Shown: in pieces, positions 37,857 to 46,696 of the stretch
Numbering within the stretch: position 1 is the first letter of the stretch
Layout: each line of letters begins with the position of its first letter
From: Alphaproteobacteria bacterium
GTDB taxonomy: Bacteria > Pseudomonadota > Alphaproteobacteria > Rs-D84
Reading direction: 5' to 3'
Assembly: GCA_031549365.1 (NCBI GenBank)
Contig: JAVBPX010000003.1
Span: forward strand, 8,703 to 72,702
DNA: 64,000 bases
Translations under genes and position numbers: made by a program
The notes under the pieces: generated by a model
What the model saw: the letters and a program-made list of their open reading frames with translations, nothing else
What the model was told of the DNA's origin: nothing
Database searches by the model: none

Positions 37857-39113
37857 ATGCAAGAAAAAAATGTAAAAATGGCGGTTTTTGGCTGTCGATT
37901 GAACAGTTTCGAAGCTGAAAAAATACGAACAATTGTATCAAATGCGAATTTTGATGATGTGATTGTATTTAATACTTGCGCCGTCACGGCCGAGGCTGAA
38001 CGCCAGGCTCGCCAATCCGTGCGCCGAGCATATCGCGAAAATCCGAACCGAAAAATCATTGTTGTTGGGTGCGCAGCATCGGCCAATGCCGAATTATTTG
38101 CAAATTTACCCGGTGTAATCAAGGTCATAGGGAATCGTGATAAATTTGATATAAATGCATATACCTGTTCCAATGTTATCGTTAATAATCCGATGGCTTT
38201 TGATGAATCTGCGCCAATGCATTTGGATACAATGGTTGAACATTTTGAAAAATTAACCCGCGGTTTCGTCCAAATTCAACAAGGATGCGATCATGCATGC
38301 ACGTTTTGTCTGGTGCGAAAGTTACGTGGGGCAAATAAATCATTCCCATATGAACATATTAGGGCCCAGGCTGAAATTCTGGTCAATCACGGATATCATG
38401 AAATTGTTTTAACTGGTGTGGATATTGCAGGATACCGCGATAATGATGGAGGATTGATATCGTTGGTTAAAAAATTACTAAACGATATTAATGGAATTAA
38501 ACGCATTCGTTTATCATCATTGGATCCCGCATTGGATTGGCGCGAATTGGTTGATTTAATGAATAATGATGATCGTGTTATGCCACACATTCATTTGTCA
38601 ATGCAATCTGGGGCTGATCCAATTTTACGGATGATGGGACGCCGCCATTTGGTCGAACACGTTCGAAAATTGGTAAACTATGCAAATTCGGGTGCACGCG
38701 AAATAACATTTGGATGGGATATGATTACTGGATTTCCGGGTGAATCGAACGAATTATTTTTGGATACACAAAATTTGGTTCGCGAATTAAAACCAACGCA
38801 TTTACATTTGTTTCCATATTCCCCCCGCCCTGGGACCCCGGCCGCGTCCATGACGAACGCCATTCCGAAACACGTGGCGCGGGAACGCGTTGCCGCATTG
38901 AACGAAATTGGACAACGCAATTTATTAAACCATATGATGAAACAAGTTGGAAAAACAGTTGAAATTTTGGTAGAAGACAATGGCGTTGGATACACCCCAA
39001 ATTATGTCCCTGTGAAATTAAACAATCGCCCAACCCCATTTTCAATATTAAATGCTGAATTGACGGATATTGATCATGAAAATATACGGTTCATTGGAAA
39101 TGCCAAAGATTGA
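37857..39113 (+). CDS. MiaB-family radical-SAM methylthiotransferase (MtaB/RimO-like)
   Basis: MAVFGCRLNSFEAE is an MTTase N-terminal domain. CDHACTFC is a radical-SAM CxxxCxxC. There is a C-terminal TRAM-like region. Start is the ATG at 37857. Confidence 0.8.
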   Translation: MQEKNVKMAVFGCRLNSFEAEKIRTIVSNANFDDVIVFNTCAVTAEAERQARQSVRRAYRENPNRKIIVVGCAASANAELFANLPGVIKVIGNRDKFDINAYTCSNVIVNNPMAFDESAPMHLDTMVEHFEKLTRGFVQIQQGCDHACTFCLVRKLRGANKSFPYEHIRAQAEILVNHGYHEIVLTGVDIAGYRDNDGGLISLVKKLLNDINGIKRIRLSSLDPALDWRELVDLMNNDDRVMPHIHLSMQSGADPILRMMGRRHLVEHVRKLVNYANSGAREITFGWDMITGFPGESNELFLDTQNLVRELKPTHLHLFPYSPRPGTPAASMTNAIPKHVARERVAALNEIGQRNLLNHMMKQVGKTVEILVEDNGVGYTPNYVPVKLNNRPTPFSILNAELTDIDHENIRFIGNAKD

Positions 39114-39873
39114 TAAAAATTTATCATCAAAAATATCCCCCTCGCCCCTTGCGGGAGAGGGTCGGGGTGAGGGGTCGCACAGAAAATACGATATCAAAAC
39201 GAAGACTTTTGCAAGAAATTTAAGAAAAAATCAAACAGATGTAGAAATAAAATTATGGTCAGTATTGCGAAATAATAATTTTAAAGATTTTAAATTTCGC
39301 CGACAATTTCAAATTGACAATAAATACATAGCCGATTTTGTTTGTTTGGAAAAAAGGTTAATCATTGAACTTGATGGCGGGCAACATTCAGAAAGCAATC
39401 ATGATAAAATACGAACAAAATATATAAACAAACAAAATTTTAAAATTTTACGATTTTGGAATAATGAAATTAATAAAAATATGGATGGATGCCTGGCCGC
39501 GATTATGAATGAATTGTTAAAAAACCCTCACCCTGACCCTCTCCCGCAAGGGACGAGGGAACATATTGAATCTAGAAAACAATTTAAACGCAACATCGAA
39601 AATTTTATTTGCAAACATTGCGGCACATCGGTCGTTGGCAACGGATACACAAATCATTGTCCAAAATGTTTATACAGTTTGGATGTCGATATTAACCCGG
39701 GCGATCGAGCATCAAATTGCGGTGGGTTGATGAAGCCGATTGGGATTACAGTACGTGGGGATGATTACATAATTCATCATAAATGTGTAAAGTGTGGCAA
39801 AGAACGGCCAAATAAATCATCTCCAAACGATGATATGAATGCAATAATAAAAATATCAAAACAAGAAATTTAA
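39076..39873 (+). CDS. fusion ORF: DUF559 (Vsr-like endonuclease fold) module joined in frame to an RNHCP zinc-ribbon domain
   Basis: The DUF559-like core is ..RNLRKNQTDVEIKLWSVLRNNNFKDFKFRRQFQIDNKYIADFVCLEKRLIIELDGGQHS..ILRFWNNEI. The RNHCP part is FICKHCGTSVVGNGYTNHCPKCLYSLDVDINPGDRASNCGGLMKPIG. The two are joined through translated hairpin repeats. Confidence 0.6.
   Translation: MKIYGSLEMPKIDKNLSSKISPSPLAGEGRGEGSHRKYDIKTKTFARNLRKNQTDVEIKLWSVLRNNNFKDFKFRRQFQIDNKYIADFVCLEKRLIIELDGGQHSESNHDKIRTKYINKQNFKILRFWNNEINKNMDGCLAAIMNELLKNPHPDPLPQGTREHIESRKQFKRNIENFICKHCGTSVVGNGYTNHCPKCLYSLDVDINPGDRASNCGGLMKPIGITVRGDDYIIHHKCVKCGKERPNKSSPNDDMNAIIKISKQEI
39137..39174. repeat. 38-bp GC-rich hairpin element (left inverted repeat flanking the DUF559 module)
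   Basis: cccctcgcccc-ttgcgggagagggtc-ggggtgagggg. It is a perfect inverted partner of 39525-39562. Confidence 0.8.
39525..39562. repeat. 38-bp GC-rich hairpin element (right inverted repeat)
   Basis: Its reverse complement is gttccctcgtCCCTTGCGGGAGAGGGTCaGGGTGAGGG. This matches the left copy over about 28 nt with one mismatch. Confidence 0.8.
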
Positions 39874-39895
39874 AAAACCAGCGCGAATACTGGGC

Positions 39896-39923
39896 AATAA
39901 AAAATCCCCCGATTTGGGGGATA
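39896..39923 (-). terminator. rho-independent terminator for rpsU
   Basis: aaaaaaatccccc-gattt-gggggat. The T-run is on the minus strand. Confidence 0.6.
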
Positions 39924-39927
39924 AATA

Positions 39928-40134
39928 TTAGAATCCGAAAACCATTTTTTGTTTTGATTGACGTTTCTTTTCACGACGGACAGCTTCCGCGCCCAAGCGT
40001 TTTTTTGCTTCGGTTGGGGTTTCGTGGCGTTGACGTTCCTTCATTTCGCGATACAGTCCTTCCTTTTGCGCTTTACGTTTTGCAACACGCAATGCTTGTT
40101 CAACGTTGTTATCACGAACAGACACTTTTACCAT
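39928..40134 (-). CDS. rpsU: 30S ribosomal protein S21
   Basis: MVKVSVRDNNVEQALRVAKRKAQKEGLYREMKERQRHETPTEAKKR... Confidence 0.9.
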   Translation of the reverse strand: MVKVSVRDNNVEQALRVAKRKAQKEGLYREMKERQRHETPTEAKKRLGAEAVRREKKRQSKQKMVFGF

Positions 40135-40300
40135 TTAAATACACCCCCTTTTTGAAACGTTTGATGGTTAAACAGGCCCGTATTATGAACATATTCCATT
40201 GAAATAGCAAGAAATAATTTAAAAAATAAAATCGGATTGCCGGCCATGCTGATTTTTGCTATAATGCATCGGCATTTTAAATCACACAAAGGAGTATTAA

Positions 40301-41314
40301 ATGGCAAAAAAAATTCGCGTTGCAATTAACGGATTTGGTCGTATTGGACGCTTGGTATTACGCGCAGCATTGGAATCCGGACGATCGGACATTGAATTCG
40401 TTGCAATTAACGATTTGGCACCAGTGAATGTATCGGCCCATTTGTTGGAATATGATTCGGTTCATCGTCATTTGGATAAAAAGATTAAATTCGGCAAAGA
40501 CTTCATTGAAATTGATGGAAAAAAAATCCCGGTGTTTGCGGAACGCGATCCGAAAATGTTGCCTTGGAAAAAATTAAATGTTGATATCGTTATGGAATGT
40601 ACCGGCATATTTACCGCCGCAGACAAAGCGCGAGTTCATTTGGATGCCGGCGCAAAACGAGTATTGGTATCGGCCCCATCCGATGGCGCAGACGCCACTA
40701 TCGTATACGGCGTTAATGAAAAAACTTTGAAAAAATCACATAAAATTATTTCAAATGCTTCGTGTACAACAAATTGTTTGGCCCCGATTGCATCCGTGTT
40801 GGATGAAAAATTCGGAATTGTTTCCGGATATATGACAACATGCCATGCTTATACCGGCGACCAACGTTTGGTTGATACTGAACATCGCGATTTACGCCGC
40901 GCACGCGCAGCCGCCATGTCAATGATTCCATCGTCAACGGGCGCTGCCAAGGCGATCGGTTTGGTATTACCAAAATTGGCCGGCAAATTGGACGGAACAT
41001 CAATCCGCGTTCCAACACCGGACGTATCTGTTGTTGAACTGGTCGTTTCGTTAAAAAAGAAAACAACCGAATCCGAAGTAAATATCGCAATGGATGCGGC
41101 CGCAAAAAAACAATTGAAAAACATTTTGGGATACAATCAACACCAATTGGTATCGATTGATTTCACACACGATCCACGCAGTTCAATTTTTGATGCAACC
41201 CAAACCAAAGTAATTGGCGGTAATTTGTTGCATGTAACCGCCTGGTACGATAACGAATGGGGATTTTCAAACCGCATGTGCGACACCGCTGTTGCGATTG
41301 GCAAATTGATTTAA
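40301..41314 (+). CDS. gap: glyceraldehyde-3-phosphate dehydrogenase
   Basis: INGFGRIGR, ASCTTNCLAP with the catalytic Cys, and WYDNEWGFS. Confidence 0.92.
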   Translation: MAKKIRVAINGFGRIGRLVLRAALESGRSDIEFVAINDLAPVNVSAHLLEYDSVHRHLDKKIKFGKDFIEIDGKKIPVFAERDPKMLPWKKLNVDIVMECTGIFTAADKARVHLDAGAKRVLVSAPSDGADATIVYGVNEKTLKKSHKIISNASCTTNCLAPIASVLDEKFGIVSGYMTTCHAYTGDQRLVDTEHRDLRRARAAAMSMIPSSTGAAKAIGLVLPKLAGKLDGTSIRVPTPDVSVVELVVSLKKKTTESEVNIAMDAAAKKQLKNILGYNQHQLVSIDFTHDPRSSIFDATQTKVIGGNLLHVTAWYDNEWGFSNRMCDTAVAIGKLI

Positions 41315-41326
41315 TTCGATTTAAAC

Positions 41327-41356
41327 CCTGCCCCGTATAACGCGGGGCTTTTTTAT
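41327..41356 (+). terminator. terminator after gap
   Basis: gccccg-tataac-gcggggc followed by tttttt. Confidence 0.6.
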
Positions 41357-41387
41357 GTAGTATATTCTTATTGACAATACTTTTCGT

Positions 41388-41846
41388 TTGTTACAAAATG
41401 AAAGTCATAAACCAAAGGATTATATTATGTGGACAAATAAAACATGGTTAAACAAAAAATGGGTTAATTTGCAAGCGATTACGAAAATCAAGAATAAAGC
41501 AGATAAATCATCTGTGGCAACAGAAGCAGAGTTTTCAGATTTTGAAAACGCTGAAATAGTAAAGTTTTTGGATTTGGGATATGGCCTGCGCTATGTTGGC
41601 GGAGCGATAAAGTTATACCACAGCCTGAAAGAGATTATGCCAATACTATCGAAACACAGATCAAACAATTCGGTGGACTTGGTTTGGAGCGAATCTTTGG
41701 AATATGAAATTGGGATAACAAGAGAATTACATCTTTTGGATAAGATTAAAGATTTAAAAAAAGAGCTTGCAGAAGTCGAATTAAAAAACATAGAAAAAGC
41801 GCGTAAATTAGTGGAAGATATGCGCGAAATATCAAACGGAAGATAA
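41388..41846 (+). CDS. hypothetical protein (ORFan cluster 2). The likely start is MWTNK at 41428.
   Basis: No domain recognised. It has a coiled-coil-like C-terminus and an upstream TTGACA. Confidence 0.45.
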   Translation: MLQNESHKPKDYIMWTNKTWLNKKWVNLQAITKIKNKADKSSVATEAEFSDFENAEIVKFLDLGYGLRYVGGAIKLYHSLKEIMPILSKHRSNNSVDLVWSESLEYEIGITRELHLLDKIKDLKKELAEVELKNIEKARKLVEDMREISNGR

Positions 41847-41847
41847 A

Positions 41848-42138
41848 ATGTCCCCATATCCCAGTCCCAGAAAAATTAAAAAATTATGCAATCACCTCAT
41901 CGATTTAGCCCACAGTTCTGGTTTAACTTTTTCAGAACGCCGACGTTGTTTGTCCTTGGCCGAAATGCTGTTAATAATGTCCAACAACCCCAATACCCCA
42001 ATCGATGCGGTTAAATTTACATACGATGTGGCAATGTCCCACGCAAACACAGTTGAATATAATAAAAGAGATCGTTACCTGAAAAATTTAAAGCATTTGG
42101 GACAACGCGCCATCGAAAAATTTAATCTGGGCCGATAA
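41848..42138 (+). CDS. hypothetical protein (ORFan cluster 2)
   Basis: 96 aa. C-terminus is ..DVAMSHANTVEYNKRDRYLKNLKHLGQRAIEKFNLGR, which resembles the C-terminus of the 28205 ORF. Confidence 0.45.
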   Translation: MSPYPSPRKIKKLCNHLIDLAHSSGLTFSERRRCLSLAEMLLIMSNNPNTPIDAVKFTYDVAMSHANTVEYNKRDRYLKNLKHLGQRAIEKFNLGR

Positions 42139-42177
42139 GTTCGGCCATTTTTTTATAAATAAACCCGATATTAATTC

Positions 42178-42205
42178 TTGACAAAATGATTTATTGTGCT
42201 AGATT
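42178..42205 (+). promoter_or_regulatory. sigma70-like promoter: TTGACA, a 16-nt spacer, then TAGATT. RBS AAGGAGAG follows.
   Basis: A consensus -35 box with good spacing, upstream of the ATG at 42240. Confidence 0.5.
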
Positions 42206-42239
42206 ATGACTATAACGACCATAATCAAAGGAGAGCGAT

Positions 42240-42584
42240 ATGGACCGGAATCAATACAAATCAAAATTTTTCTCGGAATCCACACCATTGAACATACCAT
42301 GCGCTGCCGATTTGCTGGAAATGTTCCAAGAAACGCGCGACGTTACCGGATTAAAGAAAAGAGAACGCTCATTACGCGCCCATTTTTATCGTAAATGTTT
42401 ACGCGCCATTAACGAGTGTATAATGATTTCCGATTCTGATTTATGTGAAATGGCAAAGTTCGCACATAAATTGGAAAACATGAAAGAAAAACAAGAACAA
42501 TCAATGTTGCACTTGGATTATTTAAACAGCCCTGCAATTTATGGATCACATTTACGTTATATTGAACGCAACAACGGAAAATAA
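42240..42584 (+). CDS. hypothetical protein (ORFan cluster 2)
   Basis: 114 aa with a strong RBS. Confidence 0.5.
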   Translation: MDRNQYKSKFFSESTPLNIPCAADLLEMFQETRDVTGLKKRERSLRAHFYRKCLRAINECIMISDSDLCEMAKFAHKLENMKEKQEQSMLHLDYLNSPAIYGSHLRYIERNNGK

Positions 42585-42595
42585 GAGGAAAAATT

Positions 42596-43078
42596 ATGAC
42601 AAAAAGAATTAATATCCCTGAAAACTATCGCCCTTCGATAAATGATTTTATTTCATTGAACGACTTGTTATTAAAGCTGAAAAATGTAAAGAGATTATCC
42701 CAACACCGCGCACTAGTTAACACATGGCAAAAACAATGCGAAGCCATTGCTGATTTTTTGGTAGCCCAAGTGAAAAACGATATGATAATAACTCGGAAAC
42801 TCCCAAATCAGGAAAAACATAACATGGCCCGCAATGGGTTTATAACCGATCAAAACCATGTTGATTTCTTTCATAAAATTGCGGATTTTGCATTAAATGC
42901 CCGTCCTATGGTTTCAAATAATGTTTTGAATTCCATTGAATGCTCCAAAGACGATTTCCAGGAACATTATGCAGAAATGGCCCCCATTGTGCATGTTGTT
43001 GAAGATAAAAAGTTTTACAGCCCATTGTCAGAAATCAGGGCCAGCGCAAATTCCAAATATCACCTGGCCAGCAAATAA
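42596..43078 (+). CDS. hypothetical protein (ORFan cluster 2)
   Basis: 160 aa with RBS AGAGGAAAAATT before the ATG. Confidence 0.5.
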   Translation: MTKRINIPENYRPSINDFISLNDLLLKLKNVKRLSQHRALVNTWQKQCEAIADFLVAQVKNDMIITRKLPNQEKHNMARNGFITDQNHVDFFHKIADFALNARPMVSNNVLNSIECSKDDFQEHYAEMAPIVHVVEDKKFYSPLSEIRASANSKYHLASK

Positions 43079-43099
43079 TATTTTGCGTTAATTTAAACA

Positions 43100-43131
43100 A
43101 AAATCCCCGGGGCACCCTTGGGGATTTTTTC
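43100..43131 (+). terminator. terminator after ORFan cluster 2
   Basis: aaatcccc-ggggcaccctt-ggggatttttt. Confidence 0.6.
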
Positions 43132-43217
43132 ATATTAAAAAACTATAAAAAATAAAAAAATCAAGTAATTTTTTTAATAAATGGTGCCGTATATCCGCCA
43201 TTTTTTGATTTTTATGA

Positions 43218-44345
<1,128 letters not shown>

Positions 44346-45915: not shown

Positions 45916-46638
45916 TTATATCAAATCATCCAAATTTCCGGCATCACGCAAAATATGTTCGGACGTGGCCGTATATGAATGGTCATCATTATGAACAATT
46001 ATGCCCGCATAAAATTTTGATGGGGATTTTACGCCCAATCGCGCCCGCAATAATATTCGTTCCGCAACACCGGTTTTAACAGACGAAATTAATGGGACGA
46101 CAGTAATATCAAATGCGTTCGAATCATGACACGCGGCAATAATTTGGGACGCCCCGCCCGCATCCACAATTGTGTAAAAATATCCGCGCGGCTTTACACG
46201 TTTAATGCAATTTTTGGTCCAGGCATACAAATCAATTGCGGTATGTGCGCCGGACTTTAATTTATTTGGGGATGATGCGCCCGCAAAAAATGGTGGGTTC
46301 GTTACAACAATATCGAATGTATCACGAATCTTGGGCTTTAAAATGTCCGCGTTTATCAATGTCAATTCGCGTTCATTTAAATCCGCGTTTTGTTGGCAAA
46401 TTGTCAACATATCGACATTATTATCAACGCCTGTAATTTTGGCAGATGGGCAACGTTCCAACATGGACAAAGCCACCCCGCCCGTTCCGACACCAACATC
46501 CAGGACGGCTTTCCCATTCCCATTAACCCAAGACGCCAACCAAACCGCATCTGTGGACACGGCGTATCCTGGGTTGGTTTTTAAAAATTTAACCCGCCCG
46601 CCCAAGACTGTTGAAAAATTTGTTTGTTTACTGGACAT
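45916..46638 (-). CDS. class I SAM-dependent N6-adenine (NPPF-motif) methyltransferase, TrmN6/YfiC-like
   Basis: VLDVGVGTGGVALSM is SAM motif I. VVTNPPFF is motif IV. Confidence 0.7.
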   Translation of the reverse strand: MSSKQTNFSTVLGGRVKFLKTNPGYAVSTDAVWLASWVNGNGKAVLDVGVGTGGVALSMLERCPSAKITGVDNNVDMLTICQQNADLNERELTLINADILKPKIRDTFDIVVTNPPFFAGASSPNKLKSGAHTAIDLYAWTKNCIKRVKPRGYFYTIVDAGGASQIIAACHDSNAFDITVVPLISSVKTGVAERILLRARLGVKSPSKFYAGIIVHNDDHSYTATSEHILRDAGNLDDLI

Positions 46639-46696
46639 TTTGCCCCCATTATGTTTATAATAGCATAGCAATTTTTATTAACAAAAGGCAAGTTTC

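What the first reader, a model, noticed from the sequence alone, without database searches (positions are those of the whole stretch)
39076..39873. DUF559 endonuclease-fold module bracketed by 38-bp GC-rich hairpin inverted repeats, inserted in frame at the 5' end of an RNHCP gene
Two 38-nt GC-rich sequences (39137-39174 and 39525-39562) are near-perfect inverted copies of each other. Each is also an internal hairpin (cccctcRcccc...ggggtgagggg). They flank about 350 bp that encodes a DUF559/Vsr-like restriction-endonuclease-fold domain. The whole unit sits 24 nt after the MiaB-family gene stop. It reads in frame through both repeats, translated as PLAGEGRGEG and PHPDPLPQGTRE, into an RNHCP zinc-ribbon domain, and the canonical N-terminus of that domain begins exactly at the right repeat. 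This looks like a compact endonuclease cassette with terminal inverted repeats that inserted at a gene start without breaking the reading frame. That is comparable to Rickettsia palindromic elements or MITEs, but here the element carries a nuclease domain. It is a candidate selfish or mobile module, or possibly a domesticated one.
Basis: partly seen in the sequence, partly recalled or inferred. Interest (0 to 1): 0.8.

Follow-up and report, generated by a model that had tools for sequence, protein, structure and literature searches.

The report
Nuclease gene bracketed by BoxC repeats
A small nuclease gene, bracketed by two inverted copies of a long-known but unexplained bacterial repeat (BoxC, the "triplex motif"), sits in frame in front of a zinc-ribbon gene; the same cassette turns up across many bacteria, often in frame inside essential genes, which may indicate where these repeats come from.

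Summary
Two 35-nt GC-rich arms (39139-39173 and 39525-39559, 33/35 complementary) flank a DUF559 domain (Pfam E 1.6e-36). One ORF (39076-39873) reads through both arms into an RNHCP domain (E 1.3e-26).

The arms are not new. They match the consensus of the BoxC / PIT / "intrastrand triplex motif" (TM) repeat of E. coli and more than 260 other genomes. Its origin and means of spread are reported as unknown.

What I did not find in the searched literature is the link to DUF559:
- Among 81 DUF559 loci, 50 carry a TM upstream and 48 an inverted TM downstream. Background is 10 TMs in 239 kb of far flanks and 0 in 805 kb of control loci.
- Related cassettes lie in unrelated contexts.
- The cassette occurs in frame inside PriA, RecG, RecO, NadE, GluRS, HsdS and methyltransferases.

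At this locus, all 80 RNHCP relatives fetched lack the cassette, and nearly all begin with Met-Lys-Lys-Phe. Here that Met codon is AGA, so RNHCP can be made only as a fusion.

The likely mechanism is a nuclease-dependent selfish cassette, either homing into or mobilising BoxC doublets. This is inferred, not shown. No empty site was available, because the nearest relative is only 53% identical.

The parts
37857..39113 (+). Upstream neighbour: mtaB-type radical-SAM methylthiotransferase. It is not part of the cassette. Its 3' end overlaps the possible starts of the fusion ORF.
   Evidence: Pfam Radical_SAM plus UPF0004. Identical 418-aa protein P0121.
39076..39873 (+). Single ORF of 265 codons from ATG 39076 (alternatives: TTG 39070, ATG 39100). 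It reads leader, left arm, DUF559, right arm and RNHCP in turn.
   Evidence: ORF list. Identical protein P0001 in the protein collection. Continuity from 39146 onward confirmed by an independent assembly.
39139..39173 (+). Left arm: a BoxC/TM repeat in (+) orientation, CCCTCGCCC-CTTGC-GGGAGAGGG-TCG-GGGTGAGGG. It is translated as PSPLAGEGRGEG.
   Evidence: Exact match to the TMECO consensus of PMC4666352. 77% GC in a 40% GC genome.
39199..39516 (+). DUF559 (Vsr-fold PD-(D/E)XK) nuclease domain of YcjD type.
   Evidence: PF04480 E 1.6e-36. 48% identical to E. coli YcjD. A profile of it and its homologues matches PDB 3HRL at E 1e-34. All 21 columns invariant among 12 homologues are kept. GC3 is 0.215.
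39525..39559 (-). Right arm: a BoxC/TM repeat in (-) orientation. It has the same CTTGC loop and the same mismatch type as the left arm, and is translated as PHPDPLPQGTRE.
39560..39573 (+). 14-nt junction, AACATATTGAATCT. It is open in the DUF559 frame, while TGA and TAG lie in the other two frames. There is no ATG, GTG or TTG in frame; ATT is at 39565-39567.
   Evidence: Sequence.
39574..39873 (+). RNHCP zinc-ribbon gene body. Its first codon, AGA 39574-39576, sits where nearly all of the 80 relatives have ATG (MKKFTK.IENF).
   Evidence: PF12647 E 1e-27. Alignment of N-termini.
39904..39922 (-). Terminator-like hairpin between the convergent fusion ORF and rpsU (39928-40134, minus strand). 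It marks the right limit of the transcription unit.
   Evidence: rpsU identified.

Best explanation
**What it is.** The region is one copy of a widespread, discrete cassette: a YcjD-type DUF559 nuclease gene bracketed by two inverted copies of the BoxC/PIT/TM repeat, with the third G-block of each arm facing the gene.

**Shown**
- The arms match the TM consensus.
- The TM(+)-DUF559-TM(-) arrangement recurs in many phyla, far above background.
- The two arms of one cassette resemble each other more than they resemble arms of other cassettes.
- Related cassettes lie in unrelated contexts.
- The DUF559 frame usually stays open through the right arm.
- The cassette is found in frame inside many housekeeping proteins.
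- At this locus the cassette lies between mtaB and an RNHCP gene whose ATG is AGA, giving one ORF.

**Inferred**
- The cassette arrived here by insertion. RNHCP is now translated only as a C-terminal fusion. The Gly/Pro/Glu-rich peptides encoded by the arms probably act as linkers.
- The cassette is a selfish element that persists and spreads through its nuclease acting on the TM arms.
- The most likely mechanism is cleavage at or between TM pairs, followed by copying through host repair. E. coli BoxC doublets have the configuration TM(+), about 18 nt, TM(-), which is that of an empty cassette.
- Whether those doublets are targets (homing) or deletion derivatives (MITE-like) is not resolved.
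For: **Arms match TM.** The match to the TM consensus is.

**Association of TM with DUF559**
- 50 of 81 loci carry TM(+) upstream, 48 of 81 carry TM(-) downstream, and 35 carry both. Background is 10 TMs in 239 kb of far flanks and 0 in 805 kb of RNHCP loci.
- A core-only sample, unbiased with respect to the arms, gave 8 of 10 named plasmid or chromid loci with TM or TM-like hairpins. These include Sinorhizobium, Sphingomonas, Azospirillum, Deinococcus and Synechocystis.
- E. coli ycjD has a TM-like hairpin over its stop codon and TMECO#9 about 170 nt downstream.

**Constraint on the arms**
- 140 TMs show at least 95% conservation at most block positions, with T-A/C-G covariation at the variable stem position.
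- In the window the arms are 71-77% GC, against 27% GC between them.
- Arms of one cassette share loop-1 in 9 of 35 cases, against 0.18 expected, and the variable-position triple in 26 of 35, against 13.8.

**Discrete unit.** L114, L118 and L123 are similar only from one TM outer edge to the other.

**Open frame and in-frame insertions**
- The ORF is open through the right TM in 39 of 47 loci.
- In-frame insertions, confirmed at DNA level for RecO and the MTase and at protein level (domain scans and junction peptides) for the rest, occur in RecO, an MTase (against PDB 2OZV), PriA, RecG, NadE, GluRS and HsdS.

**This locus**
- All 80 RNHCP relatives lack DUF559, and nearly all start MKKF.
- The fusion is unique among the hits.
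- An independent assembly confirms it.

**Literature and precedent**
- An E. coli empty doublet has the same configuration.
- The Vsr/DUF559 clade contains a homing endonuclease.
- Holder et al. report that no mobility gene was ever found near TMs.
Against: - **No empty site.** The nearest relative has only 53% MtaB identity and different synteny: mtaB is followed directly by rpsU, with no RNHCP.
- **No second copy here.** There is no further TM or cassette in the 64-kb window, so multiplication within this genome is not shown.
- **No target-site duplication** is evident.
- **TM-to-TM similarity is ambiguous.** TMs are about 95% conserved everywhere, so it does not show whether the arms travel with the gene or are its target.
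- **A nuclease alone cannot transpose.** A 110-residue PD-(D/E)XK nuclease cannot carry out strand transfer.
- **Orientation is not universal.** The Deinococcus cassettes have the arms reversed.
- **A DUF559 protein has a reported, though not demonstrated, host role.** One, Caulobacter VsrA, is a host Vsr-like factor linked to a cytosine methyltransferase.
- **Possible sampling bias.** The best-80 ranking of the metagenome sample used a query that contained the arm peptides. This may inflate the TM fraction and the right-arm frame bias.
Confidence: 0.6

Rival explanations
1. Pure homing. The DUF559 gene alone is the mobile part: a free-standing homing endonuclease gene that cuts empty BoxC doublets and is copied into their spacer. 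The arms are then the split target site rather than ends of the element, and BoxC spreads by some other means.
For: - E. coli doublets have the arm configuration, TM(+), 18 nt, TM(-), without a gene.
- Cassettes are often embedded in larger TM clusters, as [TM-][TM+] gene [TM-][TM+].
- The Vsr/DUF559 clade includes the homing endonuclease I-Bth0305I.
- The TM-to-TM similarity boundaries are equally expected under this model.
Against: - Arms of 35 nt are short for recombinational copying.
- E. coli doublets always pair type A with type B, whereas cassette arms tend to be alike.
- It does not explain how TM doublets came to lie inside ORFs such as PriA or RecG in the first place.
- No sequence-level match to I-Bth0305I (PDB 3R3P) at E <= 0.01.
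Confidence: 0.2
2. A host housekeeping gene. DUF559 is a Vsr-like repair or maintenance nuclease. The TMs next to it are independent repeats or regulatory or structural hairpins that accumulate there, and the RNHCP fusion is an accident of start-codon loss.
For: - Caulobacter VsrA contains a DUF559 domain, is DNA-damage-induced and is functionally linked to a cytosine methyltransferase.
- E. coli ycjD is a single-copy gene at a fixed locus.
- There is no second cassette in the window.
- The DUF559 codon composition matches the AT-rich host, which suggests long residence.
Against: - The fixed inverted orientation and tight spacing on both sides occur in dozens of unrelated lineages.
- The arms of one gene are paired copies.
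- The gene plus arms is found inside other genes, in frame.
- No C5-methyltransferase is adjacent. The nearest MTase, at 43251-44345, is of N6/N4 type.
- Vsr PF03852 is not matched.
Confidence: 0.12
3. An invertible switch. The 35-nt inverted repeats mediate programmed inversion of the 351-nt segment, turning translation of DUF559-RNHCP on and off.
For: - The products annotated 'DUF559 domain-containing protein' are enriched (odds ratio 14.3) among predicted programmed-inversion targets in Milman et al. 2023.
- The reverse strand of the segment is full of stops, so inversion would abolish the fusion.
- One Logan contig ends inside the left arm.
Against: - No recombinase or invertase lies in the neighbourhood.
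- Both independent assemblies have the same orientation, and the second Logan contig spans the right arm without a break.
- The enrichment in that study follows simply from TM arms being called as part of the CDS.
Confidence: 0.05
4. A functional two-domain protein or a decaying pseudogene. DUF559-RNHCP would be either an adaptive fusion, with a nuclease guided by a zinc ribbon, or RNHCP would be dead after losing its start codon.
For: - The single ORF is uninterrupted.
- Both domains score well and all conserved residues are kept.
- RNHCP has no start codon of its own.
Against: - The architecture is unique among the hits listed from a 5.8-billion-protein database.
- The linkers are near-consensus TM DNA rather than an evolved linker.
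- With no close relatives, selection cannot be measured.
Confidence: 0.08

Closest known systems
BoxC / PIT element / intrastrand triplex motif (TM, TMECO) of E. coli and more than 260 genomes (Holder et al. 2015, PMC4666352; earlier work by Bergler, Bachellier, and Hoyne & Maher as cited there)
   Same: - The arms match its consensus, CCCTCNCCC N3-6 GGGNGAGGG N3 GGGNGAGGG, including the common G.A mismatch subtype.
- E. coli doublets have the same inward-facing inverted configuration.
   Different: - Those repeats are described as strictly intergenic and dispersed, and never associated with a mobility gene.
- Here exactly two copies flank a nuclease gene and are translated.
REP sequences with their RAYT transposase (REPtron, REPIN)
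   Same: - A nuclease gene is flanked by inverted copies of a short GC-rich hairpin repeat.
- That repeat also occurs as solitary units and inverted doublets elsewhere in genomes.
   Different: - RAYT is an HUH/Y1 single-strand transposase, whereas this is a Vsr-fold PD-(D/E)XK nuclease.
- REPs are extragenic, whereas this cassette is often translated and lies in frame inside genes.
Rickettsia palindromic elements (RPEs)
   Same: They are palindromic elements that insert in frame into protein-coding genes and are tolerated as extra peptide segments.
   Different: RPEs are 100-150 bp and encode no protein of their own. This unit is about 420 bp and encodes a complete nuclease domain.
Homing endonuclease genes of the Vsr-like (EDxHD) family, such as I-Bth0305I (PDB 3R3P)
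   Same: They share the fold superfamily and the logic of a nuclease gene sitting in the middle of what may be its own split target.
   Different: - There is no intron or intein (no Rfam hit).
- There is no detectable sequence match.
- The family is rare in viral contigs: 5 relatives in 2.9 million.
E. coli YcjD and N. gonorrhoeae 3HRL (DUF559 proteins of unknown function)
   Same: - The window domain is 48% identical to YcjD.
- A profile of it and its homologues matches 3HRL at E 1e-34.
- Both of those loci also carry TM or TM-like repeats nearby.
   Different: - It scores below the NCBIfam equivalog cut-off (100 bits against 218).
- Here it is fused to RNHCP and has both arms intact.

Membership tests
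BoxC / PIT / TM repeat | Sequence consensus CCCTCNCCC N3-6 GGGNGAGGG N3 GGGNGAGGG | tested here: met
   The left arm matches exactly. The right arm has one mismatch, CCCTCGTCC.
BoxC / PIT / TM repeat | Many dispersed intergenic copies in the same genome | tested here: not met
   Only the two cassette arms occur in 64 kb. The rest of the genome was not available.
BoxC / PIT / TM repeat | Forms an intrastrand purine-motif triplex in vitro | not testable with these tools
   The block arrangement and the third-block T opposite the A:T pair are compatible with it. ViennaRNA models only hairpins.
DUF559 (PF04480), YcjD-like | Pfam model above its gathering score | tested here: met
   124.9 bits against a cut-off of 20.6.
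DUF559 (PF04480), YcjD-like | NCBIfam NF007294 (YcjD equivalog) above its cut-off | tested here: not met
   100.4 bits against a cut-off of 218. It belongs to the same domain family but is not an equivalog.
DUF559 (PF04480), YcjD-like | Conserved catalytic and core residues retained | tested here: met
   All 21 columns invariant among 12 homologues, including YcjD, are present.
Vsr very-short-patch repair endonuclease | Matches Vsr PF03852 and is linked to a C5-cytosine methyltransferase | tested here: not met
   PF03852 is not among the Pfam hits. The nearest methylase is of N6/N4 type, 3.4 kb away.
RNHCP (PF12647) | Pfam model above its gathering score, with the Cys motifs present | tested here: met
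   92.8 bits against a cut-off of 24; YTNHCPKC is present.
REP / RAYT system | HUH/Y1 transposase (IS200/IS605-like) | tested here: not met
   The only domains found are DUF559 and RNHCP.
REP / RAYT system | Nuclease gene flanked by inverted hairpin repeats that also occur as solo units or doublets | tested here: met
TIR transposon / MITE | Terminal inverted repeats plus a target-site duplication | tested here: inconclusive
   Inverted repeats are present. No duplication is seen in three cassettes with unrelated flanks. In the window, ATAT lies near both ends, which is not convincing.
TIR transposon / MITE | Encodes, or depends on, a transposase capable of strand transfer | tested here: not met
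   No transposase lies in the cassette or nearby.
Homing endonuclease in an intron or intein | Embedded in a self-splicing intron or intein | tested here: not met
   No Rfam family reaches threshold. No intein domains are found.
Rickettsia palindromic element-like in-frame inserts | Inserted in frame within conserved ORFs, with the host protein contiguous on both sides | tested here: met
   This holds for relatives of the cassette. In the MTase P0051, 193 residues lie between residues 144 and 149 of the 2OZV fold. Other hosts are RecO, PriA, RecG, NadE and GluRS. In the window itself the insert is at the extreme 5' end.
Programmed inversion locus | Invertase nearby and both orientations observed | tested here: not met
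   No recombinase is present. Both assemblies show a single orientation.

The most novel reading that the evidence does not exclude
TM(+)-DUF559-TM(-) is the autonomous form of a previously unrecognised class of bacterial selfish element. Its Vsr-fold nuclease recognises the triplex- or hairpin-forming BoxC/TM arms. Solitary TMs and BoxC doublets would be its non-autonomous derivatives or its targets. Because the cassette often carries no stop codon of its own, it can settle in frame inside essential genes such as PriA, RecG, NadE, GluRS and RecO, much as RPEs or inteins do but with no splicing. This would explain the origin of a repeat family that has been an orphan since the early 1990s, and its reported link to genome instability.
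Probability: 0.4. Interest if true: 0.9.

Novelty: new variant of a known kind. Interest (0 to 1): 0.78.

Why it matters
- **An orphan repeat family.** BoxC/PIT/TM repeats are found in hundreds of bacterial genomes, form triplex DNA in vitro and mark unstable loci. The main study of them states that no mobility function was ever found near them and that their origin is unanswered.
- **A testable link.** A specific association with a small, widespread nuclease family makes that question testable. The family has about 21,600 cluster representatives at E <= 1e-10. E. coli has both YcjD and 23 TMs.
- **An annotation puzzle.** The link would explain why DUF559 appears fused to so many unrelated proteins. 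It would also explain why DUF559 is flagged as a programmed-inversion target.
- **A new case of gene invasion.** It would add an example of a protein-coding element that invades genes in frame.
- **Practical consequences.** Peptides like PLAGEGRGEG and PHPNPLPQGER in predicted proteins are translated repeats. Contigs can also break in these arms.

Tried and rejected
- **Rfam on 38500-40500 at E <= 10.** Only chance-level hits, with no intron or known RNA.
- **PADLOC.** No defence-system model matched.
- **Exact look-ups of the fusion protein's contig.** These failed, and the cluster look-up gave no accession or name.
- **The single genome-contig scan.** It was seeded by the RNHCP motif, so it returned only RNHCP loci. 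That served the architecture test, but the source genome is not among the representatives and no locus was syntenic.
- **Search for close relatives through MtaB.** The best hit is 53% identical, so no empty-site test was possible.
- **Viral contigs.** Only 5 relatives were found, so the family is not typically phage-borne.
- **Promoter and terminator scan.** Nothing decisive. There is a weak promoter-like site at 39100-39127 and a terminator-like hairpin after rpsU.
- **Hairpin folding of single arms.** It is only modestly better than shuffles (z from -0.8 to -3.0). The case for the arms therefore rests on conservation, not on folding energy.
- **Rejected: the arms are conserved as protein.**
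  - Left-arm frames are spread evenly (21/15/14).
  - All three frames of the right arm are seen in homologues (PHPxPLP, LTPTLS, PSPxPSP), although one predominates (35/8/5). That bias may partly reflect sampling bias.
- **Rejected: assembly artefact.**
- **Structure prediction was not run.** An alignment for it was prepared. The RNHCP half would have had almost no alignment depth, and the result would not have separated the hypotheses.
- **Literature searches.** Searches for DUF559, ycjD, boxC, intrastrand triplex and the arm sequences found no paper that links the repeats to DUF559. The library lacks most subscription journals.
Full report
**1.

Reading 38800-40100 and listing ORFs shows one open frame from 39070/39076 to 39873. 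The repeat finder reports arms at 39139-39173 and 39525-39559: 35 nt, 94% complementary, 351 nt apart. Allowing three mismatches, the 35-mer occurs only at these two places in the 64-kb window, and none is expected in shuffles.

Pfam places DUF559 at residues 44-149 (E 1.6e-36) and RNHCP at residues 177-259 (E 1.3e-26). The upstream gene is a radical-SAM MiaB/MtaB-type enzyme. No other GC-rich island of this kind, and no second DUF559 copy, exists in the window.

An independent Logan assembly of run SRR23967709 matches window 39146-44314 without a mismatch. A second Logan contig matches 34857-39168 and stops inside the left arm. The DUF559-arm-RNHCP continuity is therefore real. The mtaB side is joined by the NCBI contig and a 23-nt overlap.

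**2. The arms are a known repeat**

A full-text search for the arm sequence led to Holder et al. 2015 (PMC4666352). Their TMECO consensus is CCCTCNCCC N3-6 GGGNGAGGG N3 GGGNGAGGG.

- The left arm fits it exactly, as CCCTCGCCC-CTTGC-GGGAGAGGG-TCG-GGGTGAGGG.
- The right arm fits with one mismatch.

This element was first described as BoxC and later as the PIT element. It forms an intrastrand triplex in vitro, occurs 23 times in E. coli K-12 and in more than 260 genomes, and marks variable loci. The authors state that it is always intergenic, that they never found transposase or integrase remnants near it, and that its mechanism and origin remain unanswered. Their text mentions neither endonucleases nor DUF domains.

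**3. DUF559 genes are specifically bracketed by these repeats**

*Protein evidence.* A homologue search with the 265-residue protein returned hundreds of DUF559 proteins. Their N-sides read like SPSPLAGEGRGEG and their C-sides like PHPNPLPQGERE.

*DNA evidence from 81 loci.* I fetched 80 metagenomic DUF559 loci using patterns taken from the catalytic core and analysed them together with the window.

| Measure | Result |
|---|---|
| TM in (+) orientation within 250 nt upstream | 50 of 81 |
| TM in (-) orientation within 250 nt downstream | 48 of 81 |
| Both | 35 of 81 |
| Opposite orientation upstream / downstream | 11 / 7 |
| TMs in far flanks of the same contigs | 10 in 239 kb |
| TMs in 80 RNHCP loci from other genomes | 0 in 805 kb |

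*Caveat and unbiased repeat.* The best 80 loci were ranked with a query that included the arm peptides. I therefore repeated the test with a core-only query.

- In the plasmid collection, 29 records matched. Of 10 fetched, 8 had TM or TM-like hairpins next to the gene:
  - S. meliloti pSymB, with a 114-nt inverted repeat;
  - Sphingomonas, with doublets on both sides;
  - two Azospirillum;
  - two Deinococcus, with the arms in reversed orientation;
  - Synechocystis;
  - Shinella.
- N. gonorrhoeae, one of the remaining two, has no TM upstream but carries a tandem array of TM-like units downstream.
- In viral contigs only 5 relatives exist, and 2 of them are TM-flanked.
- E. coli ycjD has a TM-like hairpin over its stop codon and TMECO#9 about 170 nt downstream.

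**4. The arms are constrained as DNA and are paired**

- Across 140 TMs from these loci, most block positions are at least 95% conserved. The variable stem position covaries: 97 T-A, 20 C-G, 12 G.A mismatches. The third block has T in 86%.
- In the window the arms are 77% and 71% GC. The sequence between them is 27% GC, the DUF559 GC3 is 0.215, and the genome is 40% GC. The gene looks fully adapted to an AT-rich host while the arms stay at consensus.
- Left-arm reading frames are evenly spread (21/15/14). The conservation there is therefore not at the protein level.
- The two arms of one cassette share the loop sequence in 9 of 35 cases, against 0.18 expected and a maximum of 3 in 2000 permutations. 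They share the variable-position triple in 26 of 35, against 13.8. The window arms share both.

**5. The cassette is a discrete unit**

L114, L118 and L123 are 75-80% identical from the outer edge of the left TM to the outer edge of the right TM, and unrelated beyond. L088, L115 and L135 behave the same way, with about 55 extra nt on the left that include an ATG. No target duplication is visible.

TMs are conserved everywhere. These boundaries therefore cannot tell whether the arms travel with the gene or are its target.

E. coli BoxC doublets have the same configuration as the cassette arms. An example is TM(+), 18 nt, TM(-) between hrpB and mrcB, and 4 of the 5 K-12 doublets in the published table are arranged this way. 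They look like empty cassettes.

**6. The cassette is often read through and often sits inside genes**

The DUF559 frame is open through the whole right TM in 39 of 47 loci. It usually stops a few codons into the flank.

Mid-gene insertions carrying TM(+) and TM(-) were confirmed at DNA level in three host genes:

- RecO;
- a small methyltransferase;
- an ABC ATPase, which looks fragmented.

The methyltransferase P0051 aligns to PDB 2OZV on both sides of a 193-residue insert that lies between residues 144 and 149.

A profile search of 1.84 billion representatives found 21,637 proteins at E <= 1e-10. Of 141 new representatives among the best 150, 41 are at least 300 residues long. Clustering and the profile inflate that fraction.

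Ten of these long proteins carry the module in frame, with junction peptides that are TM translations:

- PriA;
- RecG;
- the GluRS/GlnRS catalytic domain;
- NadE;
- three HsdS proteins;
- a glycosyltransferase;
- two DNA methylases.

This also explains why DUF559 proteins are enriched (odds ratio 14.3) among predicted programmed-inversion targets in Milman et al. 2023.

**7. This locus**

- The genome scan returned 80 RNHCP loci, from Alphaproteobacteria, Rickettsiales, Candidatus Enterousia, CPR and others, at up to 67% identity. None has DUF559 within 6 kb.
- Nearly all begin M-K-K-F-T-K-x-I-E-N-F. In the window the aligned codon is AGA (39574-39576).
- There is no in-frame ATG, GTG or TTG between the right arm and the RNHCP domain, or between the left arm and the DUF559 core.
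- Both domains must therefore be translated from a start at 39076 or 39100, overlapping the end of mtaB. An unusual ATT start at 39565 is the only alternative for RNHCP.
- The fusion architecture is unique among the hits listed.
- The source organism is isolated. The best MtaB relative is 53% identical. There mtaB is followed directly by rpsU, with no RNHCP, DUF559 or TM.
- An exact empty site is therefore unavailable.
- No recombinase or transposase lies nearby.

**8. Mechanism**

*Shown:* the architecture, the conservation, the pairing of the arms, the varied contexts and the in-frame tolerance.

*Inferred:* the nuclease acts on its own arms. The fold clade contains Vsr, a mismatch-specific nickase, and the homing endonuclease I-Bth0305I. 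The closest solved structure is 3HRL, a protein of unknown function. All residues invariant among homologues are kept.

- The most economical model is a selfish cassette maintained by cleavage at TM pairs and copying through host repair.
- Empty BoxC doublets would be either its targets or its deletion derivatives.
- The formal analogue is REP/RAYT, but with a different nuclease.
- The in-frame behaviour resembles that of Rickettsia palindromic elements (my own knowledge, not checked here).
- A host role like that proposed for Caulobacter VsrA remains possible for some members.
- That role does not explain the arms or the intragenic copies.

**9. Verdict**

- The arms are a known repeat and the nuclease domain is a known family.
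- I could not find their association, or the in-frame invasion of housekeeping genes, in the searched literature.
- I rate this a new variant of a known kind (nuclease plus flanking repeats), with high interest. It makes the old question of where BoxC/TM repeats come from directly testable in E. coli.

Noticed in passing
window 39146-39168 (L162 and L186): Two Logan contigs of the same organism (run SRR23967709) end and begin inside the left arm and overlap by only 23 nt. TM arms seem to break short-read assemblies, through repeat k-mers elsewhere in the sample or through a coverage drop-out.
   Followed up: partly
L187 1970-2050; proteins P0004, P0006, P0007, P0011, P0017, P0019, P0020, P0022, P0025, P0026, P0029, P0036: In the closest relatives of the window's DUF559, the left TM carries a conserved 38-nt AT-rich nested hairpin between its two G-blocks (GAATTTCAACAC...GTGTTAGAAATTC). 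It is translated as EFQHELESVRNS, so there is a second small palindromic element inside the TM.
   Followed up: partly
L115, right TM (cassette-extract positions about 740-775): A 34-nt GC-rich hairpin (CCTGCCTTCGCCGAAGCGGCTTCGCGCAGGCAGG) is inserted in the loop of the right TM. It is absent from the related cassettes L088 and L135.
   Followed up: no
L177 and L178 (Deinococcus plasmids): The arms are in the reverse orientation, TM(-) gene TM(+), with the third block pointing outward. L177 has a 53-nt inverted repeat. The orientation rule is therefore not universal.
   Followed up: no
L179 1284-1878 (N. gonorrhoeae): Downstream of the DUF559 gene lies a tandem array with a 281-nt period. Each unit carries a degenerate TM(+) and a TM(-).
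   Followed up: no
L083 448-768 and 966-1286; protein P0003: Two DUF559 modules lie in tandem, separated by TMs. P0003 is a 228-residue protein with two DUF559 domains.
   Followed up: no
window 39928-41314 compared with L163: Synteny differs from the nearest relative. There the order is gap(-) rpoZ(-) mtaB(+) rpsU(+). Here it is rpoZ(-) mtaB(+) [cassette-RNHCP](+) rpsU(-) gap(+), so the cassette lies at a rearrangement boundary.
   Followed up: partly
window 41388-43078: Four consecutive same-strand ORFs (152, 96, 114 and 160 aa) have no Pfam match. They are followed by a CcrM-like N6/N4 DNA methylase with a RAMA domain at 43251-44345.
   Followed up: partly
window 45916-46671 (-): An intact 250-residue MTS-type methyltransferase. 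It has the same Pfam MTS domain as the methyltransferase that carries an in-frame DUF559 cassette in other genomes (P0035, P0051).
   Followed up: no
window 39555-39567: The outer G-block of the right arm (GAGGG) lies 5 nt before an in-frame ATT. In general, TM outer blocks (GGAGAGG) resemble Shine-Dalgarno sequences and could supply ribosome-binding sites to downstream genes.
   Followed up: no
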